The notes under the pieces are model-generated. The model did no database searches and had not been told where the DNA came from. It saw only the letters and a program-made list of their open reading frames with translations. Positions 1 to 55,279 of a DNA stretch of 64,000 nucleotides are shown here, in pieces. Positions within the stretch are counted from its first letter, which is position 1. Every line of letters begins with the position of its first letter. Source of the stretch: Eledone cirrhosa. Its lineage: Eukaryota. The stretch lies in contig OZ024741.1 of the NCBI GenBank assembly GCA_964016885.1, forward strand, positions 332,816,001 to 332,880,000, read 5' to 3'. The translations under genes and the position numbers were made by a program.

Positions 1-211
1 AGAGGTTGAAGCCTTTAAAGAAGGCTGTGAGTTCTTTTCTGAACCTGTCACAAGCACGTGGGCCGCACTTAGTCATGGTCAAAAGACCATCAACACGGTA
101 CAAACCACCGCCCATGTTGGGGAATTCTTCCTTGATAGAGAAAAGAAGGAAAAGGCCGATAAGATCAGTAACCTCCGCAGAATCGCTGGCGCCCATACTC
201 ACGTCGAATGG
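1..211 (-). pseudogene. Penelope-like element reverse transcriptase fragment (runs off the window start)
   Basis: Manual minus-strand translation gives PFDVSMGASDSAEVTDLIGLFLL...GGLYRVDGLL...DRFRKELTAFFKGFNL. This matches the PLE RT pattern FDVxMGxxDxAExxxLxG...GLYRDDGL, with the first catalytic D changed to V. Confidence 0.8.
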
Positions 212-386
212 GATACTATTAGATATATATCTATATACATATGTATATATGTATATATGTATATATATATATACTTGTTTACCAGCAAATTGAATTGCCA
301 CCTGTCATATAATATCCCCCCTCTTCTTCCTTTCTTACAACTAATATAAGTACTTCAATTTTTCTCATTTTTTCCAATTCATCCAA

Positions 387-505
387 TATCTCTGAAGAAG
401 TGACAACTGATTATACATTTGCTATCGAATACTTGCTAACATTATATGATTACGCAAGCAGCGATACATAGGTATTCCGTCTGTTACAGAAACATATGTC
501 AATAC
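387..505 (+). ncRNA. Type I hammerhead ribozyme motif, long helix II, damaged helix I
   Basis: CTGAAGA at 392-398; helix II GTGACA...TGTTAC; GAAA at 489-492; palindromic helix III ACATATGT; triplet GTC. Helix I TATCT/A-ATA needs a one-base gap. Confidence 0.55.
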
Positions 506-547
506 CTAATAAATCCCTTTATAAAAGCACTTTCATTTTATATTCAT

Positions 548-590
<43 letters not shown>

Positions 591-904
591 ATGTATATAT
601 GTGTGTGTCCGCATGTATCTGTGTGTTTCTAAATATATTGTTAATAACTCCCTCTGGTCGAGCAACCTTTGAAGTGTGGGGACGGCTGGAAGGCTTCCAT
701 TACTCATACTTCTCGCCTTCTTCACCACCTCTTCTACGGCCTCGATATAAATACCCCCTCAACCGCCGTGGTATGTTCTTCGGGGTTATAAGAGGCTTAG
801 CTCTGTTTCCCGACCGTTATATCGCGTGACTATCTCCCCCTCCGCCTTTTGGGATTCTTTCTCACGTCGTGTAGACGCGTTCTTGAGACTAGTAAAATGA
901 GGTA

Positions 905-994
905 TCCTCTTGATAAGTCGGCAGACCTCGCAAGGACTCTATATCTTTATGATATATTGTTTTTGTTTATGCCACGAAACTACGTAGTCGAGGA
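905..994 (+). ncRNA. Degenerate type I hammerhead motif
   Basis: Helix I TCCTC/GAGGA; core TTGATAA (two changes from CTGATGA); helix II GTcGGCA/TGCCAC; GAAA; palindromic helix III ACTACGTAGT; triplet GTC. Confidence 0.55.
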
Positions 995-1080
995 ATTTAG
1001 GAGCAGTTTAGGTATGATACATTTTATTACTAATTATATCTAAATGTTTCTTCTCTCTTCATTATATATATATATATATG

Positions 1081-1132
<52 letters not shown>

Positions 1133-1283
1133 GAAGGCGCATGGCTTAGTGGTTAAAGCATTGGGCTTGTAATCAAAAGGTTGTGAATTCAATTCTTGGA
1201 CCGGGTGATGTGTTGTTTCCTTGAGCAAGACACTTTATTTCACGTTGCTCCAGTTTACTCAGCTGTAGAAATGAGTACCGGTA
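1133..1283 (+). mobile_element. tRNA-derived SINE family 1 (head and core), 3' truncated
   Basis: A-box-like TGGCTTAGTGG and B-box-like GAATTCAATTC, followed by the core TCCTTGAGCAAGACACTTT. Closely similar copies lie at 33302, 36962 and 58152. Confidence 0.8.
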
Positions 1284-4200
1284 TATCATCAGCATCATCA
1301 TCATGGTTTAACGTCCATCTTCCACGCTAGCATGGGTTTGGACGGGAATTTTCCCACTTGAGGCAAGATTGGTTGTCTTGCTCGTATAGGACTGTCTGGC
1401 GGGTTTTCTACGGCTGGATGCCCTTCGTAACACCAACCACGTTTATAGTGTGGACTGAGAGGTTTTTACCGTGTTACCTACACGGCCACATTACAGCGTG
1501 GACTGTGTGTTTTTTTGTCGTGACACCTACACGACCTCATTTGTTTCGGACTAGATGTTGTGGTACCAACATAACTTTATATTGGAAGGAGTGGGGGTAG
1601 TGGGGTCGGGATGTATTTTTGTTAAGAGGTGCCAACTGACTGTAGGTTTCGCTTTGTATTTAGGCAAAGCGGGTCTTCTGTATTACTGCGTAGCACCAAA
1701 GATCTCGGTCCAGTGACATTTTCTTGGAGAGATGTAAGTGTGTAAGGTCGGAATTTATCAAGTCATCCCAGGTTTTTCTGGGTCTGCCTACTCCGTAGCT
1801 ACGGTCTATTTTTATCGCCCTGCACTTTTTTATACAGCTGTCATCTTTCATGCGCATCACGTGACCGTACCAACGTAGTCTTCTCTCGAGTAAACAGCAT
1901 CTGATCTCTCTTATTCCTAATTTCTCACTTAGTTCATTTATGCTTTGCCGTTCACGTATATTACTATTAAACATCTAACGGAGCATGCAAGCTTCGTTCC
2001 TCTCCAGTCTGCACAGATCCTCTGCACACAATGCCCATGTCTCACTGCCATGTAACATTGTTGTTCGTATGCAGGCATCATACAGTCTGCCTTTCATTTT
2101 TAGAGAGAAACCTTTAACGGCCAATAGTGGTATAAGCTCTCTGAATATTTTCCATCCGGTTCTGACTCTGGCTCCTGTATTTTCAGAGCACCCTCCACCA
2201 CTGCTGATTTTGTCACCCAGGTAATGGAAGGTGTCCACTATTTCTATAGAACCATCTGGGCAATGGAAGGAGCTAGTATCCTGTGGGCACTTGCTGCTAC
2301 TTATTGCACCTGACCACTGGCCACATATAAAATCTACGTTCTTAGATAGCTTACCTGTGATCTCACTACATCTTTTATGCACCCATACTTTGCATTTGGG
2401 ACATACAATGGAGTTTCTGCCTACTCCTTTCCTACACACTGAGCATGGCCATTTCCTAGATGGGACTGGTGCCCTATTTTCCTTCCTACATACTAGAACT
2501 TTAGTCTTAGACAAGTTTATTTTAAGGCCTTTTGATTCTAGGACATGATTCTATGTTTGGAATTTCATCTCTAGTTCAACCATTGATTCAGTTATGAGCA
2601 TTAGATCATCTGCATATAGAAGTTCCCATGGGCAGCCTGTCTTGAACTCCTCTGCTTTAGCCTGAAGGACAATAATAAATAGGAGGGGGCTAAGGAGAGA
2701 GCCCTCATAAACACCAACTTTTACACTAAATTCTTCACTATATTCGTTGTTAATTCTAACGTTGCTAACTGTTTCTTTATACATGGCTTGTATAGCTGTC
2801 ACAAACCATTCATCAACACCTAGTTTTATAAGAGCCCACCAGATAATGGAGCGGGGGACTCTGTCAAAGGCTTTCTCCAAGTCAACAAAAGCTAAGTATA
2901 GGGGTTTACTTTTAGCTAGGTACTTCTCCTGTAGTTGTCGTACAATGAAAAGAGCATCTGTGGTACTTTTCCCTGACACAAACCCGAACTGCATTTCATC
3001 TAGATCAATTCGCTCTCTGATTAGTTGCGCTATTACTTTTTCTGTGACCTTCATGACCTGGTCGATTTATTTAATGCCTCTATAGTTACCCCTATCTAGG
3101 GCATCTCATTTACCATTGTAGCAGTTAATGATGATGCTGCTACACCAGTCCTTCGGAACGACCCCATTCTGTATGACTTGGTTTATACTCCGGGTGACCA
3201 TAGTGTGTCCCACTGTTCCAGATGCTTTCAGCATTTCAGCAACTATTTCCGAAGGCCCGACCGCCTTGCCCGTCTTCATGTCTTTGATCGCCTTACTTAT
3301 TATACTACCTTCAACTTGCACTGCTGGTCCCTCTATTGGATCTATGTGGGGGAGACTGTCTTTCTCCCAATTATTCTCCTCATTGAGTAGCCTTTCGTAG
3401 TGACACTTCCAAGCTACCTTCTTATCAGCGTCAGTGATGGCAAGTACACCATCATCATTAAGGACACACTTCTCCCCGACAATATCACTGTTTTCCTTGA
3501 CACATTGCCTAGCAATCATGAACACCTCACGTTTTTGGTCCTCGCGTTGTAGAACATGCTTGAACTTCTTTCCTCTGCTTCCCTTCTTGCGAAGTACACT
3601 TGACCCCTATCTTCCCTCCTGGCCACTTGATAGTCTTCTCTACTTCCCCCATCCCACCATACTTTCCAAGCCTGCTTTTTGGCCTTAATTGACTCCTCCA
3701 CCTTACTGTTCCAGCACCATGTTACTCTCCTCCTGCCTATAGCCCTGCTCCAGCCACAGACATCATCTGCCGCCTTCAGCAGGTTAGCTTTCAGGAATTC
3801 CCACTGTTCCTCTATATTGTACGACTCTAAATGCTCTTCCTTACTGTTAAAAGCATCAAGTAATATGCTTTTAAATTTATTACTGGCTGTGAGGTCCTTT
3901 AGCTTCCATATTTTTCTCCTGAGGATAGTCCTCCTCTGTTGTCGAGTACGTCTTGTCCTGACTAAGAGGTCGCTGACTATGAGTCTATGTTGGGAGGTGC
4001 ATTCTTCATGGGGGAGGGATTTAGTGTTTACAACAGACACTCTATCACGTCTTCTGGTAAGGATATAATCTATCTGACTGGCGTGTTCCCCTGATATATA
4101 GGTGATCAAGTGATTGTCTCGTATTTTGAAGTTAGTGTTACAGATAGTTAGGTTATTTGCATCACAGAATTCCAGGATTCTGGAGCCTTCCTCATTTCTA

Positions 4201-4900
4201 GTACCAAACACATAGCCTCCATGGATTCCATCATAGCCATCACAATGTTGTCCAACGTGAGCATTTAGGTCTCCAGCAATAATTATGTAGTCACTGTCAG
4301 TTATTTGGGAGGTCGTGAGCATCAATGTCTCATAGAATCTGTCTTTTATAACGCCAGGCAGTCCGGATTGGGGAGCGTATGCAGATATTACTGTCACAGT
4401 AGTTCTATTTAGGACATGTCTTATTTTAATTATTCTGTCGCTCACTCTATTTACGTCTATTATCTTATCTACCCATTTTTCTGCTAACATGATTCCTCCC
4501 CCACCCAGCCCATTGTCATTTCCCACCCAGAAAAGCTTATAGCATCGTTTTTAACCCACAATGAATCTAGCAAACCTACCCCTCCACCTGGTCTCTTGGA
4601 TACAACAAACATCAACCTCCTTACGTTCAAGCATTTCTACAACCTCGTTAGAGCGACCTTTTAAGGTGCCTACATTCATGGTACCAACTCTGAAGTTTTG
4701 GATTGCGTTTGGTGGGTGGGAACGGTGGGGCGAGGGGAGGGTTGAGAGGGCTGGGTTTGGGGTTATGTTGGCCATCCACGGCCGAAATAAAGAGGAGTCC
4801 TTGCCTTTTTGTTCGGCAGTATGAGGTGAATTTGTCCGCTGACTTATGATTGGTCGAAATAATAATGGTGGCATGTGTGGGCGGATAGGAGAGGTATGGT
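1284..4900 (-). mobile_element. Near full-length decayed RTE-type LINE (APE endonuclease + RT)
   Basis: Consecutive minus ORFs give the endonuclease (TMNVGTL, IQETRW, YAPQ, GDLNAH, IDYIL, SQHRL) and the RT (QFGF, AFVDLEKAFDRV, LSPLLF, LLYADD), then a Cys-rich insert and the C-terminus [11 protein letters not shown]...GRPRKTW. There is a (GAT)n-type tail at the 3' end and several stops and frameshifts. Confidence 0.92.
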
Positions 4901-5143
4901 GTAGTTAGCGAGAAGGTTTAAATAAAATCCTCAAATTTTGGGCATAATTGGACAAGCATATAACAGTAATAAGCGAATAATATTTAGAACAACCTGACAG
5001 AATTATAGAATAGCATTGAGATGGACCAGGAAGATGGAGAGACAAGAAAAGAAAATGGCATTTTACATTACATTTCACAGGAGAGCGAACAGTGTGACCA
5101 TTAATAAGATTTACATATCATCATCAAATACATATATATATAT

Positions 5144-5295
5144 ACAATATCTTAATAAATGGAAACTATATTTATAAAACCATATTTATTTTATTATACA
5201 TATTTCAAGGGCCACCAAGGCAAATTATGGTGCGCTTTAATCAGATAAAATAAATATGGTTTTATAAATATAGTTTCCATTTATTAATATATTGT
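5144..5295 (-). ncRNA. Hammerhead-like core closed by a 51-bp inverted repeat
   Basis: Arms 5144-5194 and 5245-5295 pair at 50 of 51 positions. On the minus strand the loop reads CTGATTA, helix II (AAGcGCACCA/TGGTGGcCCTT), GAAA, TATGTA, TA. Confidence 0.65.
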
Positions 5296-5383
5296 GTATT
5301 TACTCCCCTAAGCTGTTGAGTGCTTTATATCAGTTATAAAAATGTTTAAGCTTGTTGAATCCCAACAAATTAAATATAACCTC

Positions 5384-5436
<53 letters not shown>

Positions 5437-5464
5437 CTAGATATATATATATATATACATATAT

Positions 5465-5495
<31 letters not shown>

Positions 5496-5499
<4 letters not shown>

Positions 5500-6102
5500 A
5501 AATTGAGATAAGCGGGACAAGCAAAATTCAAACAATCTTTCAAAATAAATTCAAAAAATATAATTTACATATTTACCTATCCATATTTCTTTTGCTGATG
5601 GTTTCACCTCACAAAAGATTGGAAATCCAACGGACTTCCAATGGAAAGTTCGGCTCTTCAGAAAGCATTTTCCCTTACATAGGACATAAAGTCCCACAGC
5701 CAGCAAATATATTGCCTTCAGCCAACTAGTGCAAGATCGAATGGGGCCGTAAACGTGACCTACACGTGAACTGGTCATTAGTAGAAGCGGGTGTAGCATA
5801 GATGTGTTTTCTGCCACCCCACTAAAAATAGCAGCTAGGTAAACGACCGATTTTTTCTCTACACATGGGACAATATACATAAAATGAGATCAATATCCCC
5901 ACAGGTACTAAGTACCCTTGGAAATATATAGGGTGTCTATGATACAGATGTTGTTCAATGGTATTAATTTGACATACCAGAACTATAAAATTGAGATAAG
6001 CGGGACAAGCAAAATTCAAACAATCCTTCAAAATAAATTCAAAAAATATAATTTAAATATTTACCTATACATATTGCTTTTACTGACGGTTTTGCCTCAC
6101 AA
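5496..6102 (-). mobile_element. Non-coding partial tandem (pseudo-LTR-like) insert in (TA)n carrying a hammerhead-like motif
   Basis: Direct repeat of about 119 bp at 5496-5614 and 5984-6102 (offset 488). Minus strand 5667-5593 reads CTGAAGA GCC...GGT GAAA CCA TC; the second repeat copy reads GGC AAAA CCG TC. Helix I is weak. Confidence 0.5.
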
Positions 6103-6154
6103 TATATATATATATATATACATATATCTATATATATACATATATATATATATA

Positions 6155-6216
<62 letters not shown>

Positions 6217-6233
6217 CAGATATATATATATAC

Positions 6234-6284
<51 letters not shown>

Positions 6285-6301
6285 CAGATATATATATATA
6301 C

Positions 6302-6358
<57 letters not shown>

Positions 6359-6364
6359 TATACA

Positions 6365-6456
<92 letters not shown>

Positions 6457-6638
6457 TATGTATATATACATATATATACATATATATATATACATATACA
6501 TACATATATATACACACATATATATATATATGTGTATATATGTATATACATATATATGTATTACCCTATGTACTATACATACACTTTTGATGAGTTGTAG
6601 TGCACCTGAGCACTGTACACAATATTTTCATTATTATT

Positions 6639-6724
<86 letters not shown>

Positions 6725-6745
6725 CATGTATATATATATATGTAT
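6102..6745. repeat. Long (TA)n/(TATACA)n microsatellite
   Basis: Directly visible; it is the source of the YI-repeat ORFs. Confidence 0.95.
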
Positions 6746-6759
6746 AACTTTGATAACTT

Positions 6760-9720
6760 TGATAGGTTTCGGCCAGTATTGGCCCAGGCCATGTCTAACT
6801 TAATAGCACCACCTGGCGAAGTCTTACAAATGAGTGTTTGCGCACCATGGCCCACTCGAGCAGAGAGTTATTGTTTACGGAGGCATATCTGGGTGTAGGA
6901 GGCTTATCCGGGATTTCTTGAAGGAATTTATCCAAAGACTTCTTGAACTTGATGGGGTCTGTCTCTGCTTTGATGTGTTTTGGTGTAATGTTAAAGAGTG
7001 CAGGGCCAATTGAGGTGAAATAATTGTGCTGTATTGTTGTAATGAGATGCGAGTGAGATTTTTGTCGTGGGCGGATAGCACGGGGCCCAAGCCTTGGGTG
7101 TACATTAAAGGTGATGCTAACATCATTTGGGCTAAGCTGATGGAATATTTTCTACATCATGCAGATAATGTAGCGCTCACGGCGACGTTGGGGAGAATAA
7201 AGGTTGAGCTTTTCTAATCGACTCCAATAGTCAAGGCCTGTTATGCCATCTATCTTTTTTGTAATTGACCTTTGGGGTGCTTCAACTTTCATGATACTTT
7301 GTTTCGTGTGGGGTGACCACAGTAGACAACAGTATTCAAGGTGGGGTCGGGCAAAAGTGGAGAAGAGAAGGATGACAGTGAGGATATCTCTCGACTGGAA
7401 AGTTCTGAGAATCCAGGAAAACATTCTGCGGGTCATATCAACTTTGCTGTTTATATGAGTGGCCCAGCTTACGTTGTTGTCCACAATTACTCCCAGGTCT
7501 CTGATGTTATTGGAAGCCACCAGAGTTTCACCCGAAGGAAGAGAGTATGGTAGTTTCATGGCATCCTTTTTTCCAAAGTGGATTAATTCAAACTTATCCT
7601 CATTCAACAGCATATTATTCCTTTCTGCCCATTGGATAATAGCCAGTAGGTCTGACTGAAGGCAAGTCCGGTCACCCACCTCATTGATGACCCTTTGGAG
7701 CTTGGAATCATCTGCGAAGATTCTTATGTTGCTGTGCTTGATGATGTCAGTAATGTCATTAATGTAGATGATGAAAAGAAGTGGGCCCAACACAGTGCCT
7801 TGTGGGACGCCACTGCTGACTTTGACAGGGCTTGATTTTACTCCTTTGACTACAACATGCTGGGTTCTGCCTATCAGGAAACATTTGATCCACTGTAGTA
7901 ACCTTCCAGAGACACCAACATTGGATAGTTTTTTCAGTAGAATTTTATGATCAACCCTGTCAAAGGCCTTGCTGAAATCAAAGTAGATAACATCAGTGTT
8001 GGAGCCCTCTCCCAAGGCTCTCAAAACATCGTCAAAGTGATGCAGGAGCTGCGTTTGGCAATCCCTTCCATTACAGAACCCATGTTGGTTGGAGTTCAGC
8101 AGGCCGTTGCTTTCAAAAAAGTGGGTTATTCGTGATCTCACCACCCTCTCAAATACCTTGATAATATGAGTAGTAAGTGAGATCGGACGGTAGTTCACTG
8201 CAAGGGACTTATTTCCCTTTTTGAAGACTGGACTAGAAAGTTTTCAGGAATATAGCCAGTGTCCAGTGAGTTCCTCCACAGATTAGCAAGAGGAGATGCA
8301 AGTTGGTATCGACCCACCTTCAGGACACAAGCAGGGAACCTGTCGGGGCCTACTTCTGAATTGTGTTTAATTTCGTTTATTGCCACTAAGACATCAGGGG
8401 CGCCAAATGTTATGTCTGATATAGTGTGTTGGAGATTAACATCACTGATACAGCCCAATCGGCCATATCAGGATTGCTGAAAACAGAGCTGTTTCTGCAG
8501 TATCTCGCCCATGGTTTTGGCATTGTCCTGGAGTGTGTCATTTTCATCAACTAAGGCGCCAACAGTGGAGATGGTGACCTTGTGTTTTTTAGCAAATTAA
8601 AAGAACACTTTGGGGTTGAGTTTGATTTTCTCAATGGCCCACCTCTCTTCAGCTATTCTCTGGTTATTGATGATGGTCATCATGCATTGCTGGAGGTTAT
8701 ATTTTTTTGACTTAAGCAGGGCGATAGCCATTGAATGTGTGTGTTGCTGTTGGCAGTATTTTAGTGTGTTAATTTTTTTGTTTGTTCTTTTTATTTTTCT
8801 GTAAATTGTTTTTCTGTTTCGGGGGATACTGCACTTGGTTTTGTTCACAGGTTTTGGTGGGGTGTGTTTTGTACATATATTTGTGACAGTGTCTACAAAG
8901 ATCTGCCAAGATGTTTTGATGTTGGTGGAAGTGTGTGCGTGTGTAAAAGACCAGTTGACATGTGATAGTTTGTTCATAATTGCATCCCAGTTGGCATTGT
9001 AGAGATCCATGTTATCAAATGGGTGGGCTGGAAAGAGGACCCTGGGATTAGCTTTCGGCTGATGGAATCTCAGGTTTCAAAGAACCATGTCATGGTCTAA
9101 GAGAAGGGTTTTTTCCACTGTAATATTATGTATAGTGTTAGTGTGGTTACTAAACACTAGATCCAGAATGTTCTTCTGATGCCTCGTTGGTGCAAGGACA
9201 AGTTGGGACAAGAAAAACTCATTCATGAAGTCAAGAAGTGACTCAACAGCCTCTTTGTCAGTGGTTGAGGCTGTGGAGCCTGGTTTCAAACTGCTTGTAG
9301 ACCAAGCAACACAGGGTAGATTAAAGTCTCCCATTAAAAGTATGTTGCTAGAATGGCACTGTTTAATAAAGCATTTAATACTGTTGAGGCATTCTTTGAA
9401 ACAGATTATGGGTGTTTGTGGCGGCCTATAGAGCCCAACTAATGTCAGGTCATTGGCTTTATTGTGCACAGTGACTGATTCACAGTATCCATTAGAGAAT
9501 GTTGTGTTACCATCTGCCGTAAAGGAATCATGCAGGAAAATGGCAGTTCCACCCTTCCTTCTGCCAACACAATCCGTACGGATGGTTGTGAAATTTCTCA
9601 CTCTTACTTCGGCCTCCAAGTGGGAGTTGTCAAGGTGGGTCTCAGTAAGAATGAAGAAGGGGATGTGAAATGGATGGTTACCAACCCAATCCTCAATGAA
9701 TTGGATTTTCCATTTCTGTG
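6760..9720 (-). mobile_element. Decayed CR1-group LINE ORF2 (APE endonuclease + RT), 5' truncated
   Basis: Endonuclease motifs LTETHL, LYRPP, MGDFNLP, ILDLVF, DHDMV; RT motifs NYRPISLT, QHGF, DFSKAFDRVDH, GVPQGTVLGPLLF, FADDSK, RPHLEYC. Confidence 0.9.
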
Positions 9721-9803
9721 CATTATATGCATGTATATACATGTATATATATATGTATGTATATGTATGTATATATATATATATATATATTTATATATGT
9801 AAA

Positions 9804-9875
<72 letters not shown>

Positions 9876-10363
9876 CATATATAAATATATATATACATAT
9901 ACATATATATATATATATATATATACACGCACACATACATATAAAGCATAAAACAATCTACTAAAAGTAAAAGCCAACAAACTTGTCTTTTACAAATACA
10001 CAAATGAAGGAATGTTTAGTCACGTTTGGAAGCGTGAAAGAAAATAATGAATTTGCTTTTAATATCTTCCAAATATACACTGCAGATTCTAGAGATAATG
10101 ATTAATAAAGAGAAGCAAAAAATGACAAAAAAAAAAAAAATTGTGAAGAGTGGAGCATGAGTGATACAATGGTAATTACAATAAGCAAGAGGAGAAAAGA
10201 GTTGTTAAAATGGACATTTTGCCTGCTGCTACAGTGAATGATATAGAAATCAAGATAGAAACTATCAAACCACCAAATTAAAAAAAGCAATGTATATATA
10301 TTTATATATATCTATAGCTGTTGGAATGGTAAGAGCTCAGCCATCTAGTCCTGCCTCTTTATT

Positions 10364-10414
<51 letters not shown>

Positions 10415-10423
10415 ATAGAAATG

Positions 10424-10472
10424 GCTTCTACAGGACTAGAACTGTTTCATTAGGGAGAAATCATCAGGAAGC
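10424..10472 (-). ncRNA. Type I hammerhead motif with intact core
   Basis: Minus strand reads GCTTC CTGATGA tttctccctaat GAAA CAG ttctagtc CTG TA GAAGC. Helix II is weak here but reads TTC-ttat-GAA in the truncated sibling at 21565-21600. Confidence 0.7.
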
Positions 10473-10683
10473 TGACTGTCCAAGTAATATGGTGGTATTT
10501 ATACCTTTTCTGGTGGTAGGAGAAGGTGGTAATTCGGATGGTTGGAGCTCATTGGTTGATGGATTTAAAGAAAAGGGAATTCTTTAAAAACTATATTTAG
10601 AGTAACAAAGGCATACATTATAAAGTGAAATGACAGTAGGCCAAATATGTTGAATTTCCTTAATTTTTTTATTATAGCTGTAC

Positions 10684-10741
10684 ACACTATGGTCATTTCA
10701 GCAGCCAGGTTGCGTAAGAACCCGGTGACCTCATCAGGTGT
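10684..10741 (-). ncRNA. Type I hammerhead motif with intact core
   Basis: Minus strand reads ACAC CTGATGA GGTcaCCGGGTT cttacgc AACCTGGctGCT GAAA TGacCA TA GTGT. Confidence 0.75.
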
Positions 10742-11430
10742 AAATTGCGTAATAGATGTATACCAACGGAATGATGGTAAACTTTAAGGAAAAAAAGCAA
10801 AGAAAAAACAGAGAGGAAAAAGTGTGCTATGTTTTTGACCCAGAGACGGATGTAGTATCATGCTGCCACATTGATTGCCTGCCTCTGAGTCATGGTTAAC
10901 ATTGCAGAATGACCAATTCTACCCAGTGGTAAACCACCAAATTTAAATGTATATGTATATATATATATATATATGTAGGACTATATATATATAGGACTAT
11001 ATATATATATATATATATGTAGGACTATATAAATATATATATATATGTAGGACTATATAAATATATATATATATATATATGTAGGACTATATATAGGACT
11101 ATATATAGGACTATATATATATATATATATATATAGTCCTATACGAGCGAGACATGGTTACCCGACCAATCTTGCCTCAAGTGGGACAATTCCCGTCTAA
11201 CCCATGCTAGAGTGGAAGATAGACGTTAAATGATGATGATAATGATGATGATGATATATTTGAGTAAGGGGTTAACAGAACAGGGATGTGCGGATCACAC
11301 CACGGTCTGTCGGTTACGAAGCAGATAAAAGGAAGCACTCAACGACCTGTATAAATGGTACAAGATGGAGCATTATTTATTAATAAATGATGAGAGGCCA
11401 TATTCAGTTGATTCAGATTTATTTAAAACT

Positions 11431-11488
11431 CTGTTATACATATTCCACTGAGGACTATCAATTATGATAACCTGAGCTCCTCAGACAG
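11431..11488 (-). ncRNA. Type I hammerhead motif (GAAA changed to GGAA)
   Basis: Minus strand reads CTGT CTGAGGA GCTcAGG TTATCA taat TGATAG tCCTcAGT GGAA TATGTA TA ACAG. Confidence 0.6.
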
Positions 11489-11542
11489 CAAAACCTAAAA
11501 TAAGCATTGAAAGTTCCTAAGATACCTTTAAAGTTGGAAAAA

Positions 11543-11703
11543 TCCAATAATTTCTACGAAAGAGATTTTCTTTTCATGATACAGGGGTCCAGCTGAACGT
11601 GTGGTGTTGTTTTTTCAGGGGCTGGCCATAGAAGAAAAACACCATGCATTCAGCTGGCCCCCTGTATCACGAAAAGAAAATCTTTTTCGGGAAAATTATT
11701 GGA
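11543..11703. repeat. Inverted repeat/foldback with arms of about 65 bp
   Basis: TCCAATAATTTC...CAGCTGAACGTGTGGTGTT pairs imperfectly with AACACCATGCATTCAGCTG...GAAAATTATTGGA. Confidence 0.8.
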
Positions 11704-12539
11704 ACAGGAATTGAACTTGCAACCTTACAATTGTGAATTCTAACCACTAAACCATGCATAATTTTGGCAGAAATTGAGTTCCATCTGTAATATTTCAGTT
11801 CCAGTAGCTGTGATCTTCTTACTTGAATAATATTACTTTACTTCTCTCTCACTCCTCCCTCTCTCATCCTCTCTCACCCACCCCCTCTTTCACATCTTCA
11901 CATTCTGAGCTGAGATATGAAGTAGATTTTTGCCCAGTGGCAGCTTTATTACTTGTTTACAATTGCTCATAGGTTTGTGTTGTTGGCAGTGGTGTATGGT
12001 CTTTTGGTGGTAGCAGGTCATTTGGTGTTGATGTCGGTAGTAGTGCTGGCAGGTCATTTAGTGATCTTTTGGTGGTGGCAGTGATTGTGGTAGTAGTGGT
12101 TGGTCATATTTTGTGTTAAAAAAACACTTGTATATTCAGTCAGCCATTTTGGAGAAATATATATATATAATTTTGAAAATTCCTTCCTAACTAACGTTTC
12201 GATGGGAAACATGCTTGGAATTCAGGAAAGGTTTAAACCTTTCCCAACCACATTTCTAATGAAATACATTCTATTTCAAATAACTAATGAATAATTTTGA
12301 GAGTTTCATTAAAATTTAGACTAATTCCATTATTAAGATAATAATTTGACATATCATTCTGGATGTTATCCAACCAAGTTGGTTTGCTTAGGGATCCAGC
12401 TGGATGGTGATGGCTGCTTCCCATAGGACCCCTTGGAAGGCATGTCTAAAGACTGTGCTTCATTGACCCTCTTAGGAATTAGGGGGCATATGAAAAGAGA
12501 AAGAAGGTTCTTATGTAAATTTGTGTTGGGAGATTTTAA

Positions 12540-12840
12540 TTTAAATAGGAAACTTTTAAAATGAGTAGCTTTGTTTCATAGAACCGGAGCTGGTTCTGAT
12601 TGTGTTGGTATGAAATTATTAATTATTTCATTAGTAAGATAGCAACTTAGTAATGTTAAAAGCAACAATTATGTTAAACGATTTTAATATAAATAGAAAA
12701 CTTTTAAAATAAGTGGTTTTGTTTCATAGAACCAGAACCAGTTTTGAAATGGTTTGTATCAAAAATGAACCTTTAAAATGGATGGTTTTGTTTCATAGAA
12801 CAAGAGCCAGTTTTGGCCAGTTTGGCATCAAAAGGGTTAA
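12540..12840. mobile_element. MITE-like remnant with a TTAA-flanked end (piggyBac-like)
   Basis: Three subrepeats of TTTAAAATG...TTTGTTTCATAGAAC ending in ATCAAAAGGGTTAA. A similar end occurs at 19655-19719. Confidence 0.4.
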
Positions 12841-13429
12841 TGGGGACTGTTTGTCTGTAGCTCTGTTTAAAATCATACAAAATAAACTGAAGAACATTTG
12901 ACAACCATTCTCCTGTAAAACAGATATAAGTCTGATATTCTTTTATGATCAATAAAATATTTCTTGTCTGAAATTCTATACAGCCTGCTGCTGCTGACAA
13001 AATAAATATAATTCTTGTATATATTTGTCTGTTTATCTATCTATCTATCCATCTATCTGTCTATCTATATATCTATCTATCTATCATCATCATTACTGGT
13101 TTATATCCGTTTTACATGTTGGTATATATGTGTGTATACACATACACACACGCATACACACACACATATATATAAATCAATATCGATACAGGAAAAAACT
13201 GTTTAGACCATTACTCATCAGAGTACTCAATACTTGGGTAGTAGAGTGTGGTTATATGAAAGAGTTGGGACCCGAATGGCTAAGCACTAGCCGTTTCAAC
13301 AGCTAGTGGAACTAACTATTGATATGGCAAGAGCTTGGCCGTTGGGGTTCTGACTCTTTCATATATGTATATATATATATATATGTGTGTGTATATATAT
13401 ACATATATATATATATTTATGTATATATA

Positions 13430-14732
13430 CAGGGTGTGGACGATATTTGTTCGTAATTTTCAACTGCTAATTATATGCAAATTTTTTTTACTTCCGTTGT
13501 CACTCTTGTCTTCATAAAAACAGTGACTATATTTCCATTATTTATTGTCAGAATAATTGATTATGAATAATTTTGAACCTCCAAATTTGTGGAAGAGATA
13601 CGGAGTTCTTCTTGGAATCCACGCCAGGAGGACAAATAATGAAATTTCAGACTTTCTCAGCGTCAGCAGAAGAATGGTGGAAAAGGTCAGAAAGGAATTG
13701 GAAGATTCAGGATTCGACTACGAAGCAACATCAGAGAGGAAAACACATGATCGACGATCTGACGCCCTCAGAACACCCGAGTTCGTCGCTGAAGTTCAGG
13801 ATATCATCAGCAATGAACCTAGCAAGTCGATGCGTGCCATTGCAAGGGAGAAAGGCGTAGATGAAAAGCTCATTAGGCTGGTGGTACATGAAGACATTCG
13901 CTACGTTTCATACAAGATGAGGAAAGGACAATTTCTGTCAAAGGCGATGCAAGAAAAGCGACTGAAGCACGCAAAGAAGCTGATCAACAAGTTGAAACAC
14001 CCACTGGAACCAGACATGCTGTGGTTTTTCTCCAACGAGAAAAACTTCTGCCAACACCAGAAGATCAACTCCCAGAACAACAGGTGGCTCACTGTCTCAC
14101 CCAAAGACGTGCCCAGAGTCATGCAGACAAAGTTTCCAGCGACAACATTGGTCTTAGGTGTCGTCAGCAGTGAAGGTGACGTCATGCCACCACACTTCTT
14201 CCCTGAGGGCCTCAAGCTGAACACTGATGGCTACATCCGCGTTCTGAGCAAGGTAGTAAATCCCTGGATCGACCAGGTAGGCCGTACGTGTGGCAGCAAG
14301 ACTCAGCACCCTGCCATACCAGCCAAAAGACCTGGCTGTCAGAGAACTTCGTCGACCACACTTCACCTGACATCTGGCCTCCCAGCTCGCCTGACTGCAA
14401 CCCCCTCGACTTCTTTGTGTGGGGCACAGTGGAACGAGACACCAACAGATCTAGCTGCAATATGAAAGACGATCTGAAGGCCAGGATCACAAGTGCCTTT
14501 AGGGGCCTAAGTCGGGGGACAGTGACGAAGGCCTGTAGCTGGTTCCGAGGCCGCCTTGAGGCCGTCATCAAAGCCGATGGCGGGTTTATCGAGTGAGATC
14601 GCAAGAACAAGTCATGAAGACAAACTGACCCAAGTTTGATAAATATATCTTAAAATATATCTTAAAAAATAAAACTACTGTGTTATTTTTTCCTAGACAG
14701 TAATCTTGCGAACAAATATCGTCTGCCCCCTG
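13430..14732 (+). mobile_element. Full-length Tc1/mariner-superfamily DNA transposon (probably DD37D/maT-like) with an inactivated transposase
   Basis: TA target duplication; TIRs CAGGGTGTGGACGATATTTGTTCG and its near reverse complement. ORFs 13557-14465 and 14288-14596 give an HTH, FSNEK (first catalytic D changed to N), QQDSAPCH and WPPSSPDCNPLD, with a frameshift near 14285. Confidence 0.92.
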
Positions 14733-15896
14733 TATGTGAATATATATATATATATTATATATATATATATAGTGTGTGTATATATATATATATATATAGA
14801 GAGAGAGATATTCATACATACATATATGTATATATATTCAGATAGTTAACTTATTTCATGCATCTTTACAAATGTACAGATTTCTAGATGGAGAAGTGGT
14901 ATGTTTTTGTTATTATTTTTGTTATTGTTGATGTAGCTGTTGTTGTGCCTCTCCCGGAAAAAGTGAGGCAACTAAACACTGTTTTGTCCAAAGATTAATT
15001 TCGGTTTGGAGTAAAATCATAAGAAAACACTTTAGATAAACAACAACACTACCGCCACCACCGCTACCACTGACAACTCGTACACTACCACCAACAACAA
15101 CAATACTATCACCACCACTACTACTAACAACAACAGTAACAGCACCACCACCCAACAGCAACACCACCACCACCACCAACAACAACAACACCCCTAACAA
15201 CAACAGAAGTAACATCAACATCAACAACACCACCACCAACAACAGAAAACAAATCTTCAATTTCCAAAGCAGCTATTAACATGCAACAGAGAGAAGTGAA
15301 GTCAATTGTTATGGTGGGTATAGAATAGAAGTTATCAAGAGCATGTATTAGTATAGGAATTGGAAAACAGGGGAACAAACATTGCTTCTGTCTACTGCAT
15401 TAGTAACTATGTGAAGATATGTGGCTTAGTGGTTAGAGGGTTTGGCTCATGATTATAAAGGGGTGGGTTCGATTCCTGGTAGCAAATTGTGTCCTTGAGC
15501 AAGACACTTTGTAATTTCAAAGGACCATGCTTGTCACACTCTGTGTGACAAACTTGTCTTGGGAATCATGTTAAAGGGATGCATGTCTGTAGAGCAGAGA
15601 GAGAGAGAGAGAGAGAGAGAGAGTGTGTGTGTGTGTGTGTGACAGAGAGAGAAAGAGTGTATGTGAGAGAGAGAGACAGAGAGAACAGTGTATGAGAAGT
15701 TCAAAGCTTCAGCTATTCAAAAACTCTCTACTTCCTCCTAAGTTTGATACTAATAAGAATTTGTGTTTTTGATCCCTGTGTTTGAGTTGTCATTTCTTTA
15801 GATGTCAACATGAATGGACCTGTTATTTTTATCTAAAGACATTTTTTTCCAATTCCAACCCGCCTGTCTCCTCAATCTATTTTATTTCTCATTCTT

Positions 15897-46133: not shown

Positions 46134-48964
46134 GGGAGACATGATATGAAGCTTAAAAAACACTTGTGAATAGTGAAGTTTTAAATCAACATATGAAAAA
46201 TAAATTAAGATTGATGTATGAGATTGGGAAAAAGTGAGGTGAGGTTGGAAAAGGTAAGGAAGAGGAAGAGATGAGAGTAAAGGATGGTGGGGGGAGGAGT
46301 ATAAGAAGGAAGGATGAGAGAGGAGGAGAGATGGGTGATAGAGAGAGAGAGATAGCCTTTATAACTGAGAAAAAATATATATTGTCTCACAGAGAGAAAT
46401 TGAAAAGCCGTTGGAAGATAATAGATAATTTAGAATATTTTGAAATTAAAAGTTAATGAGGTTTATGCATGAAGAAAAAAGAATTAAGAATAGTATTAAA
46501 TTACGGTTTCTATAACCTTAATATTATTAAGAACATTATACGTGATCTCTTTAAGCAACATAACCTTAAAATTGAATTTGATAACAACGTCAAACTAGCT
46601 AACTTCTTGGATATATCCCTTAATCTTGACACTGGCCTATATTACCCTTACCATAAAAACAATGAGAATCTAAATTATGTTAATTTTAAATTTAACCACC
46701 CCACTAACATTAAAAATGCTATAGTCAGTAATATTGGAAAAAGAATCTCAAACCTATCCTCTAATAAAGATATCTTCGATGCTAACGCCAATTACTATAA
46801 TAATGCGCTTTCTAAAGCCGGCTATCCTGATAAAATTAAATACAGTAAAGAAACCAATCCTAGAAGGTCTTACAGTAAAATAATTAATTATGAACATTCC
46901 AATAACTTAAATAAAAGACCTAGATACAAAAATATAATCTGGTATAATGCTCCTTTCTCTATTTCTATTAATAATAATATTCCTAAACTATTCTTTAGGG
47001 CCTTAGATAAATGCTTCCCTCCCTCACATATCTATAGTAAAATCTTTAACAAACATTCAATAAAATTTTCTTATTCCACCTCTTCCAACATCTCTAGCAT
47101 TATCTCTAAACACAACAATAAAATATTAAATAATAAATCACATCCTTCCAACACTGAGCGTCATAATAATAGCAGTAGTACTCCCGACTTCATTGTTAAC
47201 TCTAGGCTAGATTCTGTAAACTTAAATACGACGTCAAACGTAACTTCGTTGAATGTTCATAATACCAATCTAAATCAGAAACTATTATTCCTATCGTAAA
47301 TAACTTCTCCAATCCAATTCCTCCTATAAATAACAATAGGTCACTTGTTAATAACTCTGTTAATTTCTCTAATCGTAATTGCAATTGCCCTGTTAGAACT
47401 AAATGTCCTCTTAATAACCACTGTCTTGATAAAAACTTAGTCTATGAATGTAAAGTTATAACTGATACCAATTCCTTTACCTCTTTCGGTTCCACCTCCA
47501 CTTCCTTCAAAGCTAGATTTTATAATCACAATTCGTATTTTAGATACCAACTTAAAAGAACTAACACGGCACTCTCGGAACTCATATGGTCCTTGAAAGA
47601 CAAAAATATTAACTATAACATCTCTTGGAGGAAGGTTTGTTCTGCCTTTCCTTACCTGAATTCTTCCCTATCCAGAACATGCAATCTCTGCCTAGCCGAG
47701 AAATTTACCATTATATCTAATTTCAATTCTATAATAAATAGACGCACGGATTTATTTTCTCTCTGCTTGCATAAATTCCACAGAACATTCCATAAAGTAT
47801 ACAGCTAATATCTAATACCTTACTAGTTTAAAATCCTTTTTCTCAAAGGCTTATATATCTTTTACAAATATACCCATCTTTCTACCTTATTTCAATATTA
47901 TTTATTAAATATTATATAATACAATTTACTCATTCTATATCATTCCTCTTTATCATTTTCCTTTCTTCTTTTTTTCTTTTTAATTTCTAACCTCTAATCT
48001 GTACTTTTTCTTCCCAACTACTTCTCTATTCTTATTATTACTCACCACAACATTATCCATTCTGCCATCTTTCCTCATATCTCTGGCCATAAAAATTATT
48101 TTTTTAATACATTATAGTATTACCATTAGAAGTCCTTCGTAAACATATAATTTTTTGACGTTAGATTTTTTTTCTTCCTTAAATGTTTCTTATTTCCTCC
48201 ATCCTTTCATGCTCGTTTTAAACTACTACTTAATTTGACTTTTACATATTACAATACATAAAAACAAACTTAAACCCTAACTAATTTCTTTTAATATATT
48301 ATATTATTACCATTAGAAAATATTTCGTAACTTTTTGATGTTAGATATTTTCTTCCTTAAATATTCTTTTCTTCTTTCCTTCCGCGCTCATTTTAAAACA
48401 AAATATTTACGTACACATATTACATTACATAAAAACAAACTTAAACCCTAACTAATTCCTCTAAATTCATGACTCATTCATTCTTCTCCCTCTTTTTACA
48501 TTATATCCTTAATAACATTAATATTTTTATTTTAATAATACATATTAATAAATTCTTTTCCTCGCACATATTATTAAACCCTTCAATATACAAACCTTAA
48601 TTTAATACTATTCTTAATTCCTTTTTCTTCATGCATAAACCTCATTAACTTTTAATTTCAAAATCTTTTAAATTATCTATTATCTTCCAACGGCTTTTCA
48701 ATTTCTCTCTGTGAGACAATATATATATTTTTCTCAGTTGTAAAGGCACTCTCACTCTCTCCATCACCCATCTCTCCTCTTCTCTCATCCTTCCTTCTTA
48801 TACTCCTCCCCCCACCATCCTTTACTCTCATCTCTTCCTCTTCCTTACCTTTTCCAACCCCCCCCCCCTCACTGTTTCCCAATCTCATACATCAATCTTA
48901 ATTTATTTTTCATATGTTGATTTAAAACTTCACTATTCACAAGTGTTTTTTAAGCTTCATATCA

Positions 48965-49893: not shown

Positions 49894-51096
49894 TTCAAAA
49901 GGAATATAAATTAAAATAAGCAAAGAATGTTACATAAATGTAATGTTCCATATATTGGTATTTCACTATGGTGTCCTGGGTATATCTATTGTCTGCCAGA
50001 GTCAAGCAGTATTCTTCTGTCGAGGCTGCATTGTGTGAGATCTGCCTATGGGTAACAAGATAGCCGCCAATGGACATATTTACCTTACTAATTAGAGGGT
50101 GGTTTCAGGGGAAGTAACTCCTCGCGAGATTAGAAATTGTGGGTAGTTTATAGTTAAGTGCTAATTTTTTAATTTTTTAATTGAGAGATAATATACTTAC
50201 TCTAGTAACACACCTCCCCCATCTAATCCTTCTAGCACTGACCAACCGCTTAGGTTAAACAACCCTACTCTCACTAACCGCAGAAGTAACTGCAACTGCC
50301 GTTACCCAAATGCATGCCCACTAAATGGACATTGCCTGACACCCAATATAGTTTATAGGTGCACGGTTAAAACTGCTTCGCATACCAGCTCCTATATCGG
50401 GTCTACCTCTAACCCTTTTAAGGTACGCTATAACGCGCACTCTTTTTCCTTCCTAGACCCTAACAACAGATGTTCGACATCTCTAGCTAGGCTCATTAAA
50501 AACCTTAAATTAACCAACATTGAACACTCACTAACATGGGATATCTTGGTTAGGGCCTAACCGTTTAATGGATGAAGAAAATCTTGTGACTTCTGTCTTA
50601 CCGAAGCATATTACATAACTCTATCACGACATCTACCGATTAACTATAGAACGAAGGTAACTTTTCAACATCGAAGGGCTAATTCCTTCGCCAACAGAAT
50701 ATTTGACCCAACATAGTCATCTATCCCCATTTTTACTTGTAGCTAAGAAGTTAAATAGTTATAGCTAACTTAGATAATTATAAGTTACCTCCCGTATATT
50801 GTCTCTCAATTAAAAAATTAAAAAATTAGCACATAACTATAAACTACCGACAATTTCTAATCTCTCGAGGAGTTACTTCCCCTGAAACCCCCCTCTAATT
50901 AGTAAGGGAAATATATCCATTGGCGGCCATCTTGTTACCCATAGGCAGATCTCACACAATGCAGCCTCGACAGAAGAATACTGCTTGACTATGGCAGACA
51001 ATAGACATACCCAGGACACCATAGTGAAATACCAATATATGGAACATTACATTTATGTAACATTCTTTGCTTATTTTAATTTATATTCCTTTTGAA

Positions 51097-51215: not shown

Positions 51216-51478
51216 GGACATTATTATTATTATTCTCTACATTCCTTACATCAAACTAAAATATGTTGACAATCTTTTAATAATGTCTTCCTTGTGAAAT
51301 TTGTGGTCTTGTTTTGCTTAACTAATGAATATATATATATATATATATATATGTAGGAGGTGAGTTTTATTGTAGTACAATAAAGCAATGCAGATATCGG
51401 ATAAGAAGCACTCTACAGTTTGTAGGACTGGAGTATACATAATATATAAGATCAAAAGATGGTTAAATGAGTTCCATG

Positions 51479-51549
51479 TATTTTATTATGCGCATTTCAA
51501 AAACAAATATCATCATGCAATAACATTTGTGTTTTCATCAGATAAAATA
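51479..51549 (-). ncRNA. Intact type I hammerhead motif in the PLE-B left arm
   Basis: Reverse complement of 55209-55279. Confidence 0.85.
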
Positions 51550-51912
51550 GGAAGACATGATATGAAGGTTAAAAACACTTGTGGATAGTGCAGTTTTAAA
51601 TCAACATATGAAAAGTAGTTTTACATTGATGTGTGATATTGGGGAAACATTTTTTCTTAGGGGTTGGGGGGTTGGAAAGGATGAAAAAAAGGAGGAGATG
51701 AGAGTAAAAAGTGGAGGGAGGGGGGAGTATAATGAGGAAGGATGAGATAGGAGGAGAGATGGGTGATAGAGAGAGAGAGATAGCTTTTATAACTGAGAAA
51801 AATATATTGTTTTACATAGAGAGGTTGAAAAACCGTTGGAAGATAATGTATAAATTAAAAGAATTTGAAAATTAACGAAGAGAAAAATAATGTAAAGTTA
51901 AGGTTTGTATAT

Positions 51913-52142
51913 TGAAGGGTTTAATAATATGTGCGATGAAAAGAAATTGTTAATATGTATTAAGAATAATATTTAAGGGTTTAATAATATGTGCGATGAA
52001 AAGAAATTGTTAATATGTATTAAGAATAATATTTAAGGGTTTAATAATATGTGCGATGGAAAGAAAATGTTAATATGTATTAAGAATAATATTTAAGGGT
52101 TTAATAATATGTGCGATGGAAAGAAAATATTGATATGTATTA
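51913..52142. repeat. 60-bp tandem repeat, about four units, in the PLE-B 3' UTR (mirrored at about 54630-54860)
   Basis: Unit AAGGGTTTAATAATATGTGCGATG(A/G)AAAGAAATTGTTAATATGTATTAAGAATAATATTT. Confidence 0.9.
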
Positions 52143-53742
52143 TTAAAAAAACCCAAAAGTAATGTAAGTAAGGATATATTGTGAGATGAGCATGAATAAG
52201 TTAGATGAAAGTGAGAAAAAAATAATGAATAGAGGATGAATAATCTAACATAAAAAAAAATGTTTATGTTTACGAAGGATTTTTTCAAGGTGATATAAAG
52301 TATTGTGTAATAATTGTTTCTATGTTAGGCACAGTGAGAAAAGGTACAGATTAGGGGTTAGAAATTAAAAGAAAAAGAAAAGGAAAAGGAAGAAAGGTTA
52401 AGTGATAAATAGGAGTGATATAGAATATAATAAATAACTTTGAAATAAGGTAGAAACATGGGTATATTTTTAAAGAAGTATATATATATATATATATGTG
52501 CCTTTGAGAAAAGGATTCTGAATTGATAAAGTTTAAGATATTAGCTGTATACTTTATGGAAAGTTCTGTGGAATTTATGCAAGCAGATAGAAAACAAGTC
52601 AGTGCGTCTATTTATTATAGAATCTAAATTAGATATAATGGTAAATTTTTCATTTAGACAGAGATTGCAAGTCTTGGATAGAGAACTGTTCAAGTATGAA
52701 GAAGCAGAGGAAACCTTTTTCCAAGAGATGTTATATTTAATATTTGTGTCTTTCAAGGACCATATGAGTTCTGAGAGAGCCGTGTTGGTTCTTTTAAGTT
52801 GGTATTTAAAAGACGAATGATGATTATAAAGACCAGCTTTAAAGGAGGTGGAAGTGGAGCCAAATAGGTGAAGGAATTGGTGTCAGTTATAACTTTACAT
52901 TCGTAGATTAAGTTTTTATCAAGACAATGGTTGTTAAGAGAATATTTATTTTTAGCAGGGCAATTGCAATTGCGATTAGAGAGATTATTAACGAGTGACC
53001 TAGTGTTATCTATAGAAGGAATTGGATTGGAGAAGTTATTTGCGATAGGAATAATAGTTTCTTGATTTAGAATAGGATTAAGAACATTTAGCGAAGTTGT
53101 GTTTGACGTTGTATTTGGGTTTGCAGAAATTAGCCTAGAGTTTACAATGACGTCGGGAGTACTATTACTATTATTATGATATTCAGTGTTGGAAGGAAGA
53201 GATTTAGTATTTAGTATTTTATTGTTGTGTTTAGAGATAATGTTGGAAATGTTGGAGGATGTTGAATAGGAACATTTTATAGTGTGTTTGTTAAATATTT
53301 TACTATAGATATGTGAGGGAGGGAAGCATTTATTTAAGGCACTAAAGAATAATTTAGGAATATTATTATTAATAGAGATGGAGAAAGGAGCATTATACCA
53401 GATTATGTTTTTGTATCTAGGTCTTTTATTAAAGTTATTGGAATGATCATGATTAATTATTCTACTGTAAGATCTTATAGAATTTGTTTCTTTATTATAT
53501 TTGATTTTATCAGGATAGCCGGCTTTAGAAAGCGCGTTATTATAGTAATTGGCGTTAGCATCGAAGATGTTTTTATTAGAAGATAGGTTAGATATTCTTT
53601 TTCCAATATTACTAACTATAGCATTCTTAATATTAGTAGGGTGGTTAGATTTAAAATTAACATAATTTAGGTTCTCATTGTTTTTATGGTAAGGGTAATA
53701 TAGGCCAGTGTCAAGATTAAGAGATACTAACTAATTTCTTGG

Positions 53743-55208: not shown

Positions 55209-55279
55209 TATTTTATCTGATGAAAACACAAATGTTATTGCATGATGATATTTGTTTTTGAAATGCGCATAATAAAATA
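55209..55279 (+). ncRNA. Intact type I hammerhead motif in the PLE-B right arm
   Basis: TATTTTAT CTGATGA AAAcACAAATGTTATT gcat GATGATATTTGTtTTT GAAA TGCGCA TA ATAAAATA. Confidence 0.88.

What the first reader, a model, noticed from the sequence alone, without database searches (positions are those of the whole stretch)
5144..5295. Hammerhead core sitting as the loop of a 51-bp near-perfect hairpin
What looks like a MITE or foldback has arms that abut the catalytic core exactly at the helix I positions, so helix I is 51 bp long. PLE hammerheads usually have only a few base pairs there. This copy has G8 changed to U and is probably inactive. Inference: a ribozyme-processed long dsRNA hairpin, a possible Dicer or ADAR substrate, or a fold-back priming product.
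Basis: partly seen in the sequence, partly recalled or inferred. Interest (0 to 1): 0.72.

Follow-up and report, generated by a model that had tools for sequence, protein, structure and literature searches.

The report
Penelope insertion joined at ribozyme stem
The hairpin is real: it is two short end-pieces of a common Penelope-type jumping gene set head to head, likely joined where the ribozyme's own short stem gave them matching bases, so the 51-base-pair stem is a rare by-product (3 such copies found among thousands) and not a feature of the family.

Summary
Observation confirmed, interpretation mostly refuted. The minus strand holds a type I hammerhead (C3 at 5244, G8U) closed by a 51-bp stem with one mismatch. 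It is the 3' end of a Penelope-like retrotransposon with Hydra-clade motifs. G8 is the family consensus (4,576 of 4,625), so G8U is a sporadic substitution. The family's own helix I is 8 bp, an internal loop, then 12 bp. The long stem arises because 5245-5387 is a second, inverted copy of the element's 3' end, fused at the 8-nt helix I complementarity. Only 3 loci have this junction, 14 more use the 12-nt segment, and the core lies on either arm. Inverted arms flank 71 of 100 sampled tail-bearing copies, usually one tailed and one tail-less, which fits priming at both nicked strands and joining by microhomology (inferred). Copy ends do not cluster at the ribozyme cut site; they cluster about 137 nt upstream. 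No RNA data were available. Inverted insertions with a one-sided tail are published, and this scan already noted twin-primed Penelope hairpins on other DNA. Low interest.

The parts
5144..5252 (-). Short (tail-less) arm: element 3' region from the helix I 5' strand through the hammerhead core to about +51 after the cut site, ending in (TA)n
   Evidence: 94.7% identical over 113 nt to the hammerhead region of ORF-bearing copies L098 and L101
5245..5387 (+). Long (tailed) arm: inverted second copy of the element 3' end, +1 to +143, ending in (TA)n; supplies the 5' strand of the 51-bp stem
   Evidence: 98.6% identical over 144 nt to L101; its 30-nt tail motif occurs 2,258 times in G000
5245..5252 (.). 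8-nt junction microhomology, readable both as the helix I 5' strand of the short arm and as +1 to +8 of the long arm
   Evidence: sequence compared with native helix I in unbiased copies
5238..5244 (-). Core C3-A9, CUGAUUA; G8 changed to U at 5239
   Evidence: 4,576 of 4,625 copies have G; 28 A, 11 T, 10 C
5207..5237 (-). Helix II (9 bp, C-C mismatch, one bulge, 10-nt loop; A10.1-U11.1)
5195..5206 (-). G12-A15.1, short self-complementary helix III and U16.1-A17; predicted cut between 5195 and 5194
   Evidence: dimer requirement inferred from PMC4209133
5144..5295 (.). 51-bp stem (5144-5194 with 5245-5295), 7 of 51 G+C, with the core as a 50-nt loop
5131..5143 (.). (TA)n target, left side; the right side is (TA)n from 5388; no target-site duplication discernible

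Best explanation
This is a 244-bp head-to-head stub of the 3' end of a Penelope-like retrotransposon, likely made when two separately primed cDNAs were joined at the 8 complementary bases of the ribozyme's helix I, which left one hammerhead core as the loop of a 51-bp stem. Shown: both arms are pieces of the element's 3' end; one ends at the short terminus (about +51) and one at the tailed terminus (+143); both ends abut (TA)n; the junction overlaps by 8 nt; the parent encodes RT plus GIY-YIG. Inferred: the element protein nicked both strands of a (TA)n target and primed at the RNA's two start sites. One cDNA ran from +143 to the helix I 3' strand, the other from about +51 through the core to the helix I 5' strand, and their 3' ends annealed and were filled in. 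G8U is a sporadic substitution, probably acquired after insertion. The stem likely has no selected function.
For: Family and parent: 4,625 exact core matches; RT + GIY-YIG ORF remnants lie about 1.4-1.8 kb upstream of the same hammerhead in 3 of 4 extended loci, and the fourth is interrupted by a sister-family insertion. Layout: 71 of 100 tail-bearing copies have an adjacent inverted arm, 55 of them ending at the short terminus. In 38 of those 55 each arm holds sequence that the other lacks, which self-copying cannot give, and 27 of 55 overlap at the junction. Junctions recur at both complementary segments of helix I: 3 loci at the 8-nt segment and 14 at the 12-nt segment. The core is on the short arm in 2 of 3 and 8 of 14 loci, and on the long arm in 1 of 3 and 6 of 14. 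Core-less hairpins joined at a nearby palindrome also occur (L109, L118, L121). PMC11167929 shows in vitro that a Penelope protein nicks and extends both strands from two RNA start sites and uses uncut RNA.
Against: No call observes the joining. A later deletion between near-direct repeats in a longer palindrome gives the same product. The long arm begins within the 8 nt that follow the predicted cut site, which is also what a cut RNA would give. Two of the 3 proximal-junction loci have a broken core (G8U, G12U), against 1 of 14 distal ones; the window was ascertained, and the numbers are tiny. The 100-copy sample comes from one contig and includes some near-identical duplicates (L145/146, L220-L225). 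PMC3846280 explains such junctions by self-priming on an antisense template instead.
Confidence: 0.72

Rival explanations
1. A longer head-to-head insertion with two cores lost one core later, by slippage or repair between the near-direct repeats that helix I creates in such a palindrome.
For: Two-core palindromes are common (9 close minus-then-plus pairs among the first 100 matches). The more frequent junction uses the longer homology (14 loci at 12 nt, 3 at 8 nt). Microhomology deletions occur in the family and are described for Penelope elements (PMC3846280).
Against: Needs a second event. Equally abrupt junctions with overlaps occur all along the element in 27 of 55 pairs, so no special event is required.
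Confidence: 0.13
2. The long arm was copied from a ribozyme-cut RNA, so reverse transcription ran off at +1, and the short arm came from an uncut RNA; the junction then records hammerhead cleavage in vivo.
For: The long arm can start exactly at +1. A few other arms end at +1 (L064/L065, L083, L232). Two of 3 proximal loci have broken cores.
Against: No long arm of 100 starts at +1; 2 fall within -5..+8, at +6 and +7. Genome-wide break patterns give 11 hits at the cut site, 3 at +4 and 10 at -3, about half of each being real ends by eye. Five of 9 apparent cut-site ends checked are Helitron-like insertions after which the element resumes. PMC11167929 found no RNA ends at the cut site.
Confidence: 0.08
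3. One cDNA folded back on its own helix I copy and primed the second arm.
For: It would explain L062, where the core is on the long arm and the stem is a perfect 51 bp. A hybrid (fold-back, then a switch to a second cDNA) cannot be excluded for the window.
Against: In the window the core is on the short arm and the other arm has about 90 nt (+52 to +143) that the short arm lacks; 38 of 55 pairs are likewise non-nested.
Confidence: 0.05
4. A selected, ribozyme-processed long double-stranded RNA for Dicer or ADAR.
For: The stem is stable on either strand and would be double-stranded if transcribed.
Against: The stem is not conserved in the family. The core is broken here. A cut inside the loop would not release anything from a 51-bp stem (inference). 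Many family insertions have longer overlapping arms, so this locus is not special.
Confidence: 0.02

Closest known systems
Inverted-pLTR insertions of endonuclease-bearing Penelope-like elements with a one-sided tail (PMC8557442 passages; PMC3846280 passages)
   Same: 5'-truncated inverted copy head to head, tail at one end only, (TA)n target, overlap at the junction
   Different: Here a 244-bp stub without ORF; the tail is about 90 nt rather than 30-40; the junction falls in helix I, so one core forms the loop
Hydra clade of Penelope-like elements (PMC8557442, section 11 read)
   Same: C-terminal GIY-YIG, DKT, CxCX5C linker, CxH, canonical hammerhead, (TA)n insertion
   Different: About 1.4-1.8 kb of non-coding sequence lies between ORF and hammerhead; RWK was seen only in the sister family; no tree was built
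Type I hammerheads of metazoan Penelope-like elements (PMC4209133, parts 1-2 of 4 read)
   Same: Type I topology, long helix II, short palindromic helix III that suggests dimer activity; that paper notes motif pairs 100-700 bp apart on opposite strands
   Different: A10.1-U11.1 in most copies instead of G10.1-C11.1; native helix I of 8 + 12 bp around an internal loop; this copy is G8U
Green anole Poseidon element in vitro (PMC11167929, parts 1-2 of 4 read)
   Same: Two reverse-transcription start sites that define the tail, both target strands extended, AT-rich target, cleavage not needed
   Different: Another clade; joining of two cDNAs is not shown in the parts read
Non-LTR retrozymes (bioRxiv 10.64898/2026.07.22.740005, part 1 of 5 read) and MITEs (recalled)
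   Same: Short, non-coding, high copy, hammerhead-bearing (retrozymes); inverted arms (MITEs)
   Different: No head-to-tail tandem of hammerhead units; arm lengths vary from copy to copy; no fixed terminal repeats

Membership tests
Type I hammerhead ribozyme | Core CUGANGA and GAAA with NUH | tested here: not met
   This copy is CUGAUUA; the family meets it, G8 in 4,576 of 4,625
Type I hammerhead ribozyme | Helices I, II, III around the core, with covariation | tested here: met
   91.9% of cells paired in 28 diverse copies; 7 of 9 helix II pairs change on both sides; 0 of 500 shuffles reach the score. Helix III has only a 2-nt loop
Type I hammerhead ribozyme | Self-cleavage | not testable with these tools
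   No assay; no RNA run listed
Type I hammerhead ribozyme | Match to an Rfam hammerhead model | tested here: not met
   None listed at E<=10 for 5100-5340 or at E<=1 for 1-15000
Endonuclease-bearing Penelope-like element | RT followed by a C-terminal GIY-YIG endonuclease, linked to this 3' end | tested here: met
   L098, L099, L101: YRDD and VY..YVG motifs upstream of the hammerhead; Pfam GIY-YIG E=4e-4, 21 bits, just under the 22.6 cut-off, in 1 of 4 proteins scanned
Endonuclease-bearing Penelope-like element | Inverted 5'-truncated copy and one-sided tail | tested here: met
   71 of 100 with an inverted arm, 55 short-ended, 7 long-ended
Endonuclease-bearing Penelope-like element | Direct pLTRs in partial tandem around a full ORF | not tested
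   No full-length copy was sought; L098 shows a tail-end fragment just upstream of its truncated ORF
Hydra clade | DKT in place of DKG | tested here: met
   KSDKTN in L098; 85 of 120 listed relatives have DKT, 1 has DKG
Hydra clade | CxCX5C linker and CxH | tested here: met
   CNCRNKFNC (L099), CNCRNKSNC (L101), SCKH (L098, L101); 91 of 120 relatives have CxCX5C
Hydra clade | N-terminal RWK | tested here: inconclusive
   Family copies are 5'-truncated; RWK present in the sister family and RW[KR] in 63 of 120 relatives
Hydra clade | Insertion into (TA)n | tested here: met
   Window and most loci
Hydra clade | Placement in an RT phylogeny | not tested
   No reference Hydra sequences were on hand
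MITE | Fixed terminal inverted repeats and constant structure across copies | tested here: not met
   Junction positions range over hundreds of nt; 3 loci share this layout
Non-LTR retrozyme | Head-to-tail tandem units, each with a hammerhead | tested here: not met
   Close pairs among the first 100 core matches are head to head; 2 of 100 tail rows had an adjacent same-strand piece

The most novel reading that the evidence does not exclude
The hammerhead does cut in vivo and steers integration: a cDNA that runs off the cut RNA end at +1 anneals, through helix I, to a second cDNA made from an uncut (core-mutant) RNA. Core-in-loop hairpins such as this one would then be genomic records of Penelope ribozyme cleavage and of two-RNA twin priming, a function not shown in the papers read.
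Probability: 0.08. Interest if true: 0.6.

Novelty: new member of a known kind. Interest (0 to 1): 0.22.

Why it matters
As a locus it matters little: it is one dead stub among thousands. As a data point it bears on an open question named in PMC8557442, how Penelope elements form inverted insertions. Junctions at helix I with the core on either arm, and non-nested arms in 38 of 55 pairs, favour two primed cDNAs over self-priming. The lack of an end peak at the cut site agrees with in vitro evidence that uncut RNA is the template. The strong 5' hotspot about 137 nt upstream is a testable candidate for the RNA start. It also warns that such stubs look like MITEs or microRNA hairpins.

Tried and rejected
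(1) Recurrent G8U: the 30 loci were rich in U8, often on one arm of a pair. This was query bias; the unbiased count is 11 T, 10 C, 28 A of 4,625. (2) Arms ending at the cut site: suggested. Five of 9 such loci checked are Helitron-like insertions and the other 4 were unresolved within 1.5 kb. Most of the 30 loci examined from the 877 hits were small indels. No peak. (3) Rfam: only below-threshold microRNA hairpin matches. (4) Expression: no RNA holder listed, which is no evidence either way. Logan contigs of four runs were swamped by family copies and no listed piece spans the hairpin. (5) PDB search of the parent ORF: 0 hits; Pfam: 0 families for 3 of 4 proteins. (6) One search used a structure string out of register and is void; one search is the corrected count. 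(7) One window ORF (52753-53730) was translated on the wrong strand, so those query rows are to be ignored. (8) Literature: 'Penelope + twin priming + inverted' gave 2 off-topic listings; 'hammerhead, retrotransposon, long hairpin, helix I, Dicer' at 4 of 5 terms gave 0; two searches gave listings only. Supplements were not read and may hold Hydra-clade hammerhead structures.

Full report
Observation. Positions 5144-5194 pair with 5245-5295 at 50 of 51 positions, far beyond chance (z -12.5 and -9.4; 0 of 200 shuffles). On the minus strand the loop is a type I hammerhead: CUGAUUA at 5244-5238, helix II at 5237-5207, GAAA at 5206-5203, a short self-complementary helix III, and U16.1-A17 with the predicted cut between 5195 and 5194. 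The arms start exactly at positions 2.1 and 1.1. The hammerhead fold without helix III is within 2 kcal/mol of the minimum-energy fold. Rfam lists no hammerhead here.

The family. The sequence is multi-copy: a 29-nt core pattern matches 4,625 times in G000. Position 8 is G in 4,576 copies and A, T, C in 28, 11, 10, so G8U is sporadic. In 28 diverse copies chosen from 93 distinct helix II sequences (32 picked, 4 left out: two junction loci, one sister-family copy, one degenerate copy), 91.9% of cells pair and 7 of 9 helix II pairs change on both sides. The native helix I is 8 bp, an internal loop, then 12 bp. None of 29 scorable loci of 30 unbiased ones exceeds 10 uninterrupted Watson-Crick pairs. 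Flank duplex energies are -13 to -25 kcal/mol, against -57 to -67 for the three long-stem loci.

The parent. Extending four long copies found RT plus GIY-YIG ORF remnants about 1.4-1.8 kb upstream of the same hammerhead in three (L098, L099, L101); the fourth is interrupted by a sister-family insertion. The window arms are 94.7% and 98.6% identical to L101. The protein has YRDD, DKT, CxCX5C and CxH motifs, and 85 of 120 listed relatives have DKT against 1 with DKG. These are the Hydra-clade marks given in PMC8557442, section 11. The closest named relative is an Argonauta hians protein at 41% identity. No tree was built.

What the stem is. The + strand stretch 5245-5387 is a second, inverted copy of the element's 3' end (+1 to +143 from the cut site). 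The minus-strand arm runs from helix I through the core to about +51. Both ends abut (TA)n. The two arms share 8 nt at 5245-5252, which are helix I itself. So the '51-bp helix I' is the +1 to +51 region paired with its own inverted duplicate. The same junction occurs at 3 loci: the window; L062 (perfect 51 bp, core on the tailed arm, G12U); and L063 (another subfamily, 57 bp, intact core). Fourteen more loci join at the distal 12-nt segment, 13 with an intact core, with the core on the short arm in 8 and the long arm in 6. L008 is a further such case.

How such insertions form. Of the first 100 matches to a distal tail motif (2,258 in all; all 100 on contig C1, some near-duplicates), 71 have an adjacent inverted arm: 55 end at the short terminus, 7 at the long one, and 9 elsewhere. 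In 38 of the 55 each arm holds sequence the other lacks, in 26 the long arm starts at or beyond +39 as classical twin priming predicts, and 27 overlap at the junction. PMC11167929 (parts 1-2 of 4 read) shows a Penelope protein nicking and extending both strands from two RNA start sites, with cleavage not required. I infer two cDNAs, primed at about +51 and +143 and joined by microhomology; in the window that homology was helix I. Simple fold-back fails for the window because the core is on the short arm. Later deletion from a two-core palindrome remains possible. PMC3846280 (passages) prefers self-priming on an antisense template.

Does cleavage set the junction? The long arm could begin at +1, so I tested this. 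No long arm of 100 starts at +1; two lie at +6 and +7, one of them a microsatellite interruption. BLAST placed 4 of 55 short arms within -5..+8, but by eye only L139 clearly reaches that far. Genome-wide break probes gave 11 hits at the cut site, 3 at +4 and 10 at -3, roughly half real ends in each. Five of 9 apparent cut-site ends checked are Helitron-like insertions. A few real +1 ends exist (L064/L065, L083, L232), so a small excess is not excluded. The true hotspot is -140 to -128: 27 of 55 short arms and 21 of 100 long arms. It lies at a CACTATCC motif that also precedes both sister-family hammerheads in the window, and is likely the RNA start (inference).

Double-stranded RNA. No RNA run was listed and the contigs were uninformative, so Dicer or ADAR use is untested. 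Any such use would be generic to the many inverted insertions of this family and not tied to this ribozyme.

What is known. Inverted 5'-truncated copies, a one-sided tail and (TA)n targeting are described (PMC8557442 passages; PMC3846280 passages). Opposite-strand hammerhead pairs and palindromic helix III are described in PMC4209133 (parts 1-2 of 4 read). My searches found no paper on twin priming in Penelope elements or on a core-in-loop hairpin. This scan's own notes hold 646 findings with these words in at least 53 genomes, several reaching the same twin-priming reading; they are unchecked notes, not support. I had formed this reading before looking.

Verdict. A real feature, an ordinary origin, a new member of a known kind. 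Interest 0.22.

Noticed in passing
family-wide; positions -140 to -128 from the cut site (L132-L227): Sharp 5'-end hotspot (27 of 55 short arms, 21 of 100 long arms) at a CACTATCC motif shared with the sister family (window 55168 + and 51590 -); candidate RNA start site.
   Followed up: partly
window 51350-55420: About 4-kb head-to-head insertion of a sister Hydra-type element with ORF remnants; intact hammerheads at 51541 (-, tailed arm) and 55217 (+, short arm). Further ORF remnants at 46460-47808 and 50192-50560.
   Followed up: partly
window 10670-10755, minus strand (C3 at 10737): A second, unrelated multi-copy type I hammerhead with an intact core; 1,013 candidates, 40 scored at 87-93% identity. 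Parent element not identified.
   Followed up: partly
L066, L072, L074, L077, L081: 0.9-1.3 kb Helitron-like inserts (TC...CTAG, naming recalled) at the A-T next to the hammerhead cut site; they mimic cleavage-defined ends.
   Followed up: partly
L064/L065: Duplicated insertion of a related subfamily in which both arms stop near +1 and about 57 nt of non-core sequence form the loop; the best single case for cleavage-defined ends.
   Followed up: no
family 3' end, +51 to +143 (window 5296-5387): The tail is about 90 nt, longer than the 30-40 nt described, and holds a small hairpin that is also seen in the sister family.
   Followed up: no
window 5500-5620 and 5988-6102: Two 93% identical copies of a 115-nt repeat, each beside a (TA)n tract; identity unknown.
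   Followed up: no
window 1975-4550, 7152-9790, 13557-14596: Decayed endonuclease/RT LINE remnants (two families) and a Tc1/mariner-like transposase remnant, named by eye from the translations.
   Followed up: no
L220, L221, L223, L224 and L222, L225: Near-identical insertions within about 1.1 Mb on contig C1, likely segmental duplicates; they inflate the hotspot counts slightly.
   Followed up: no
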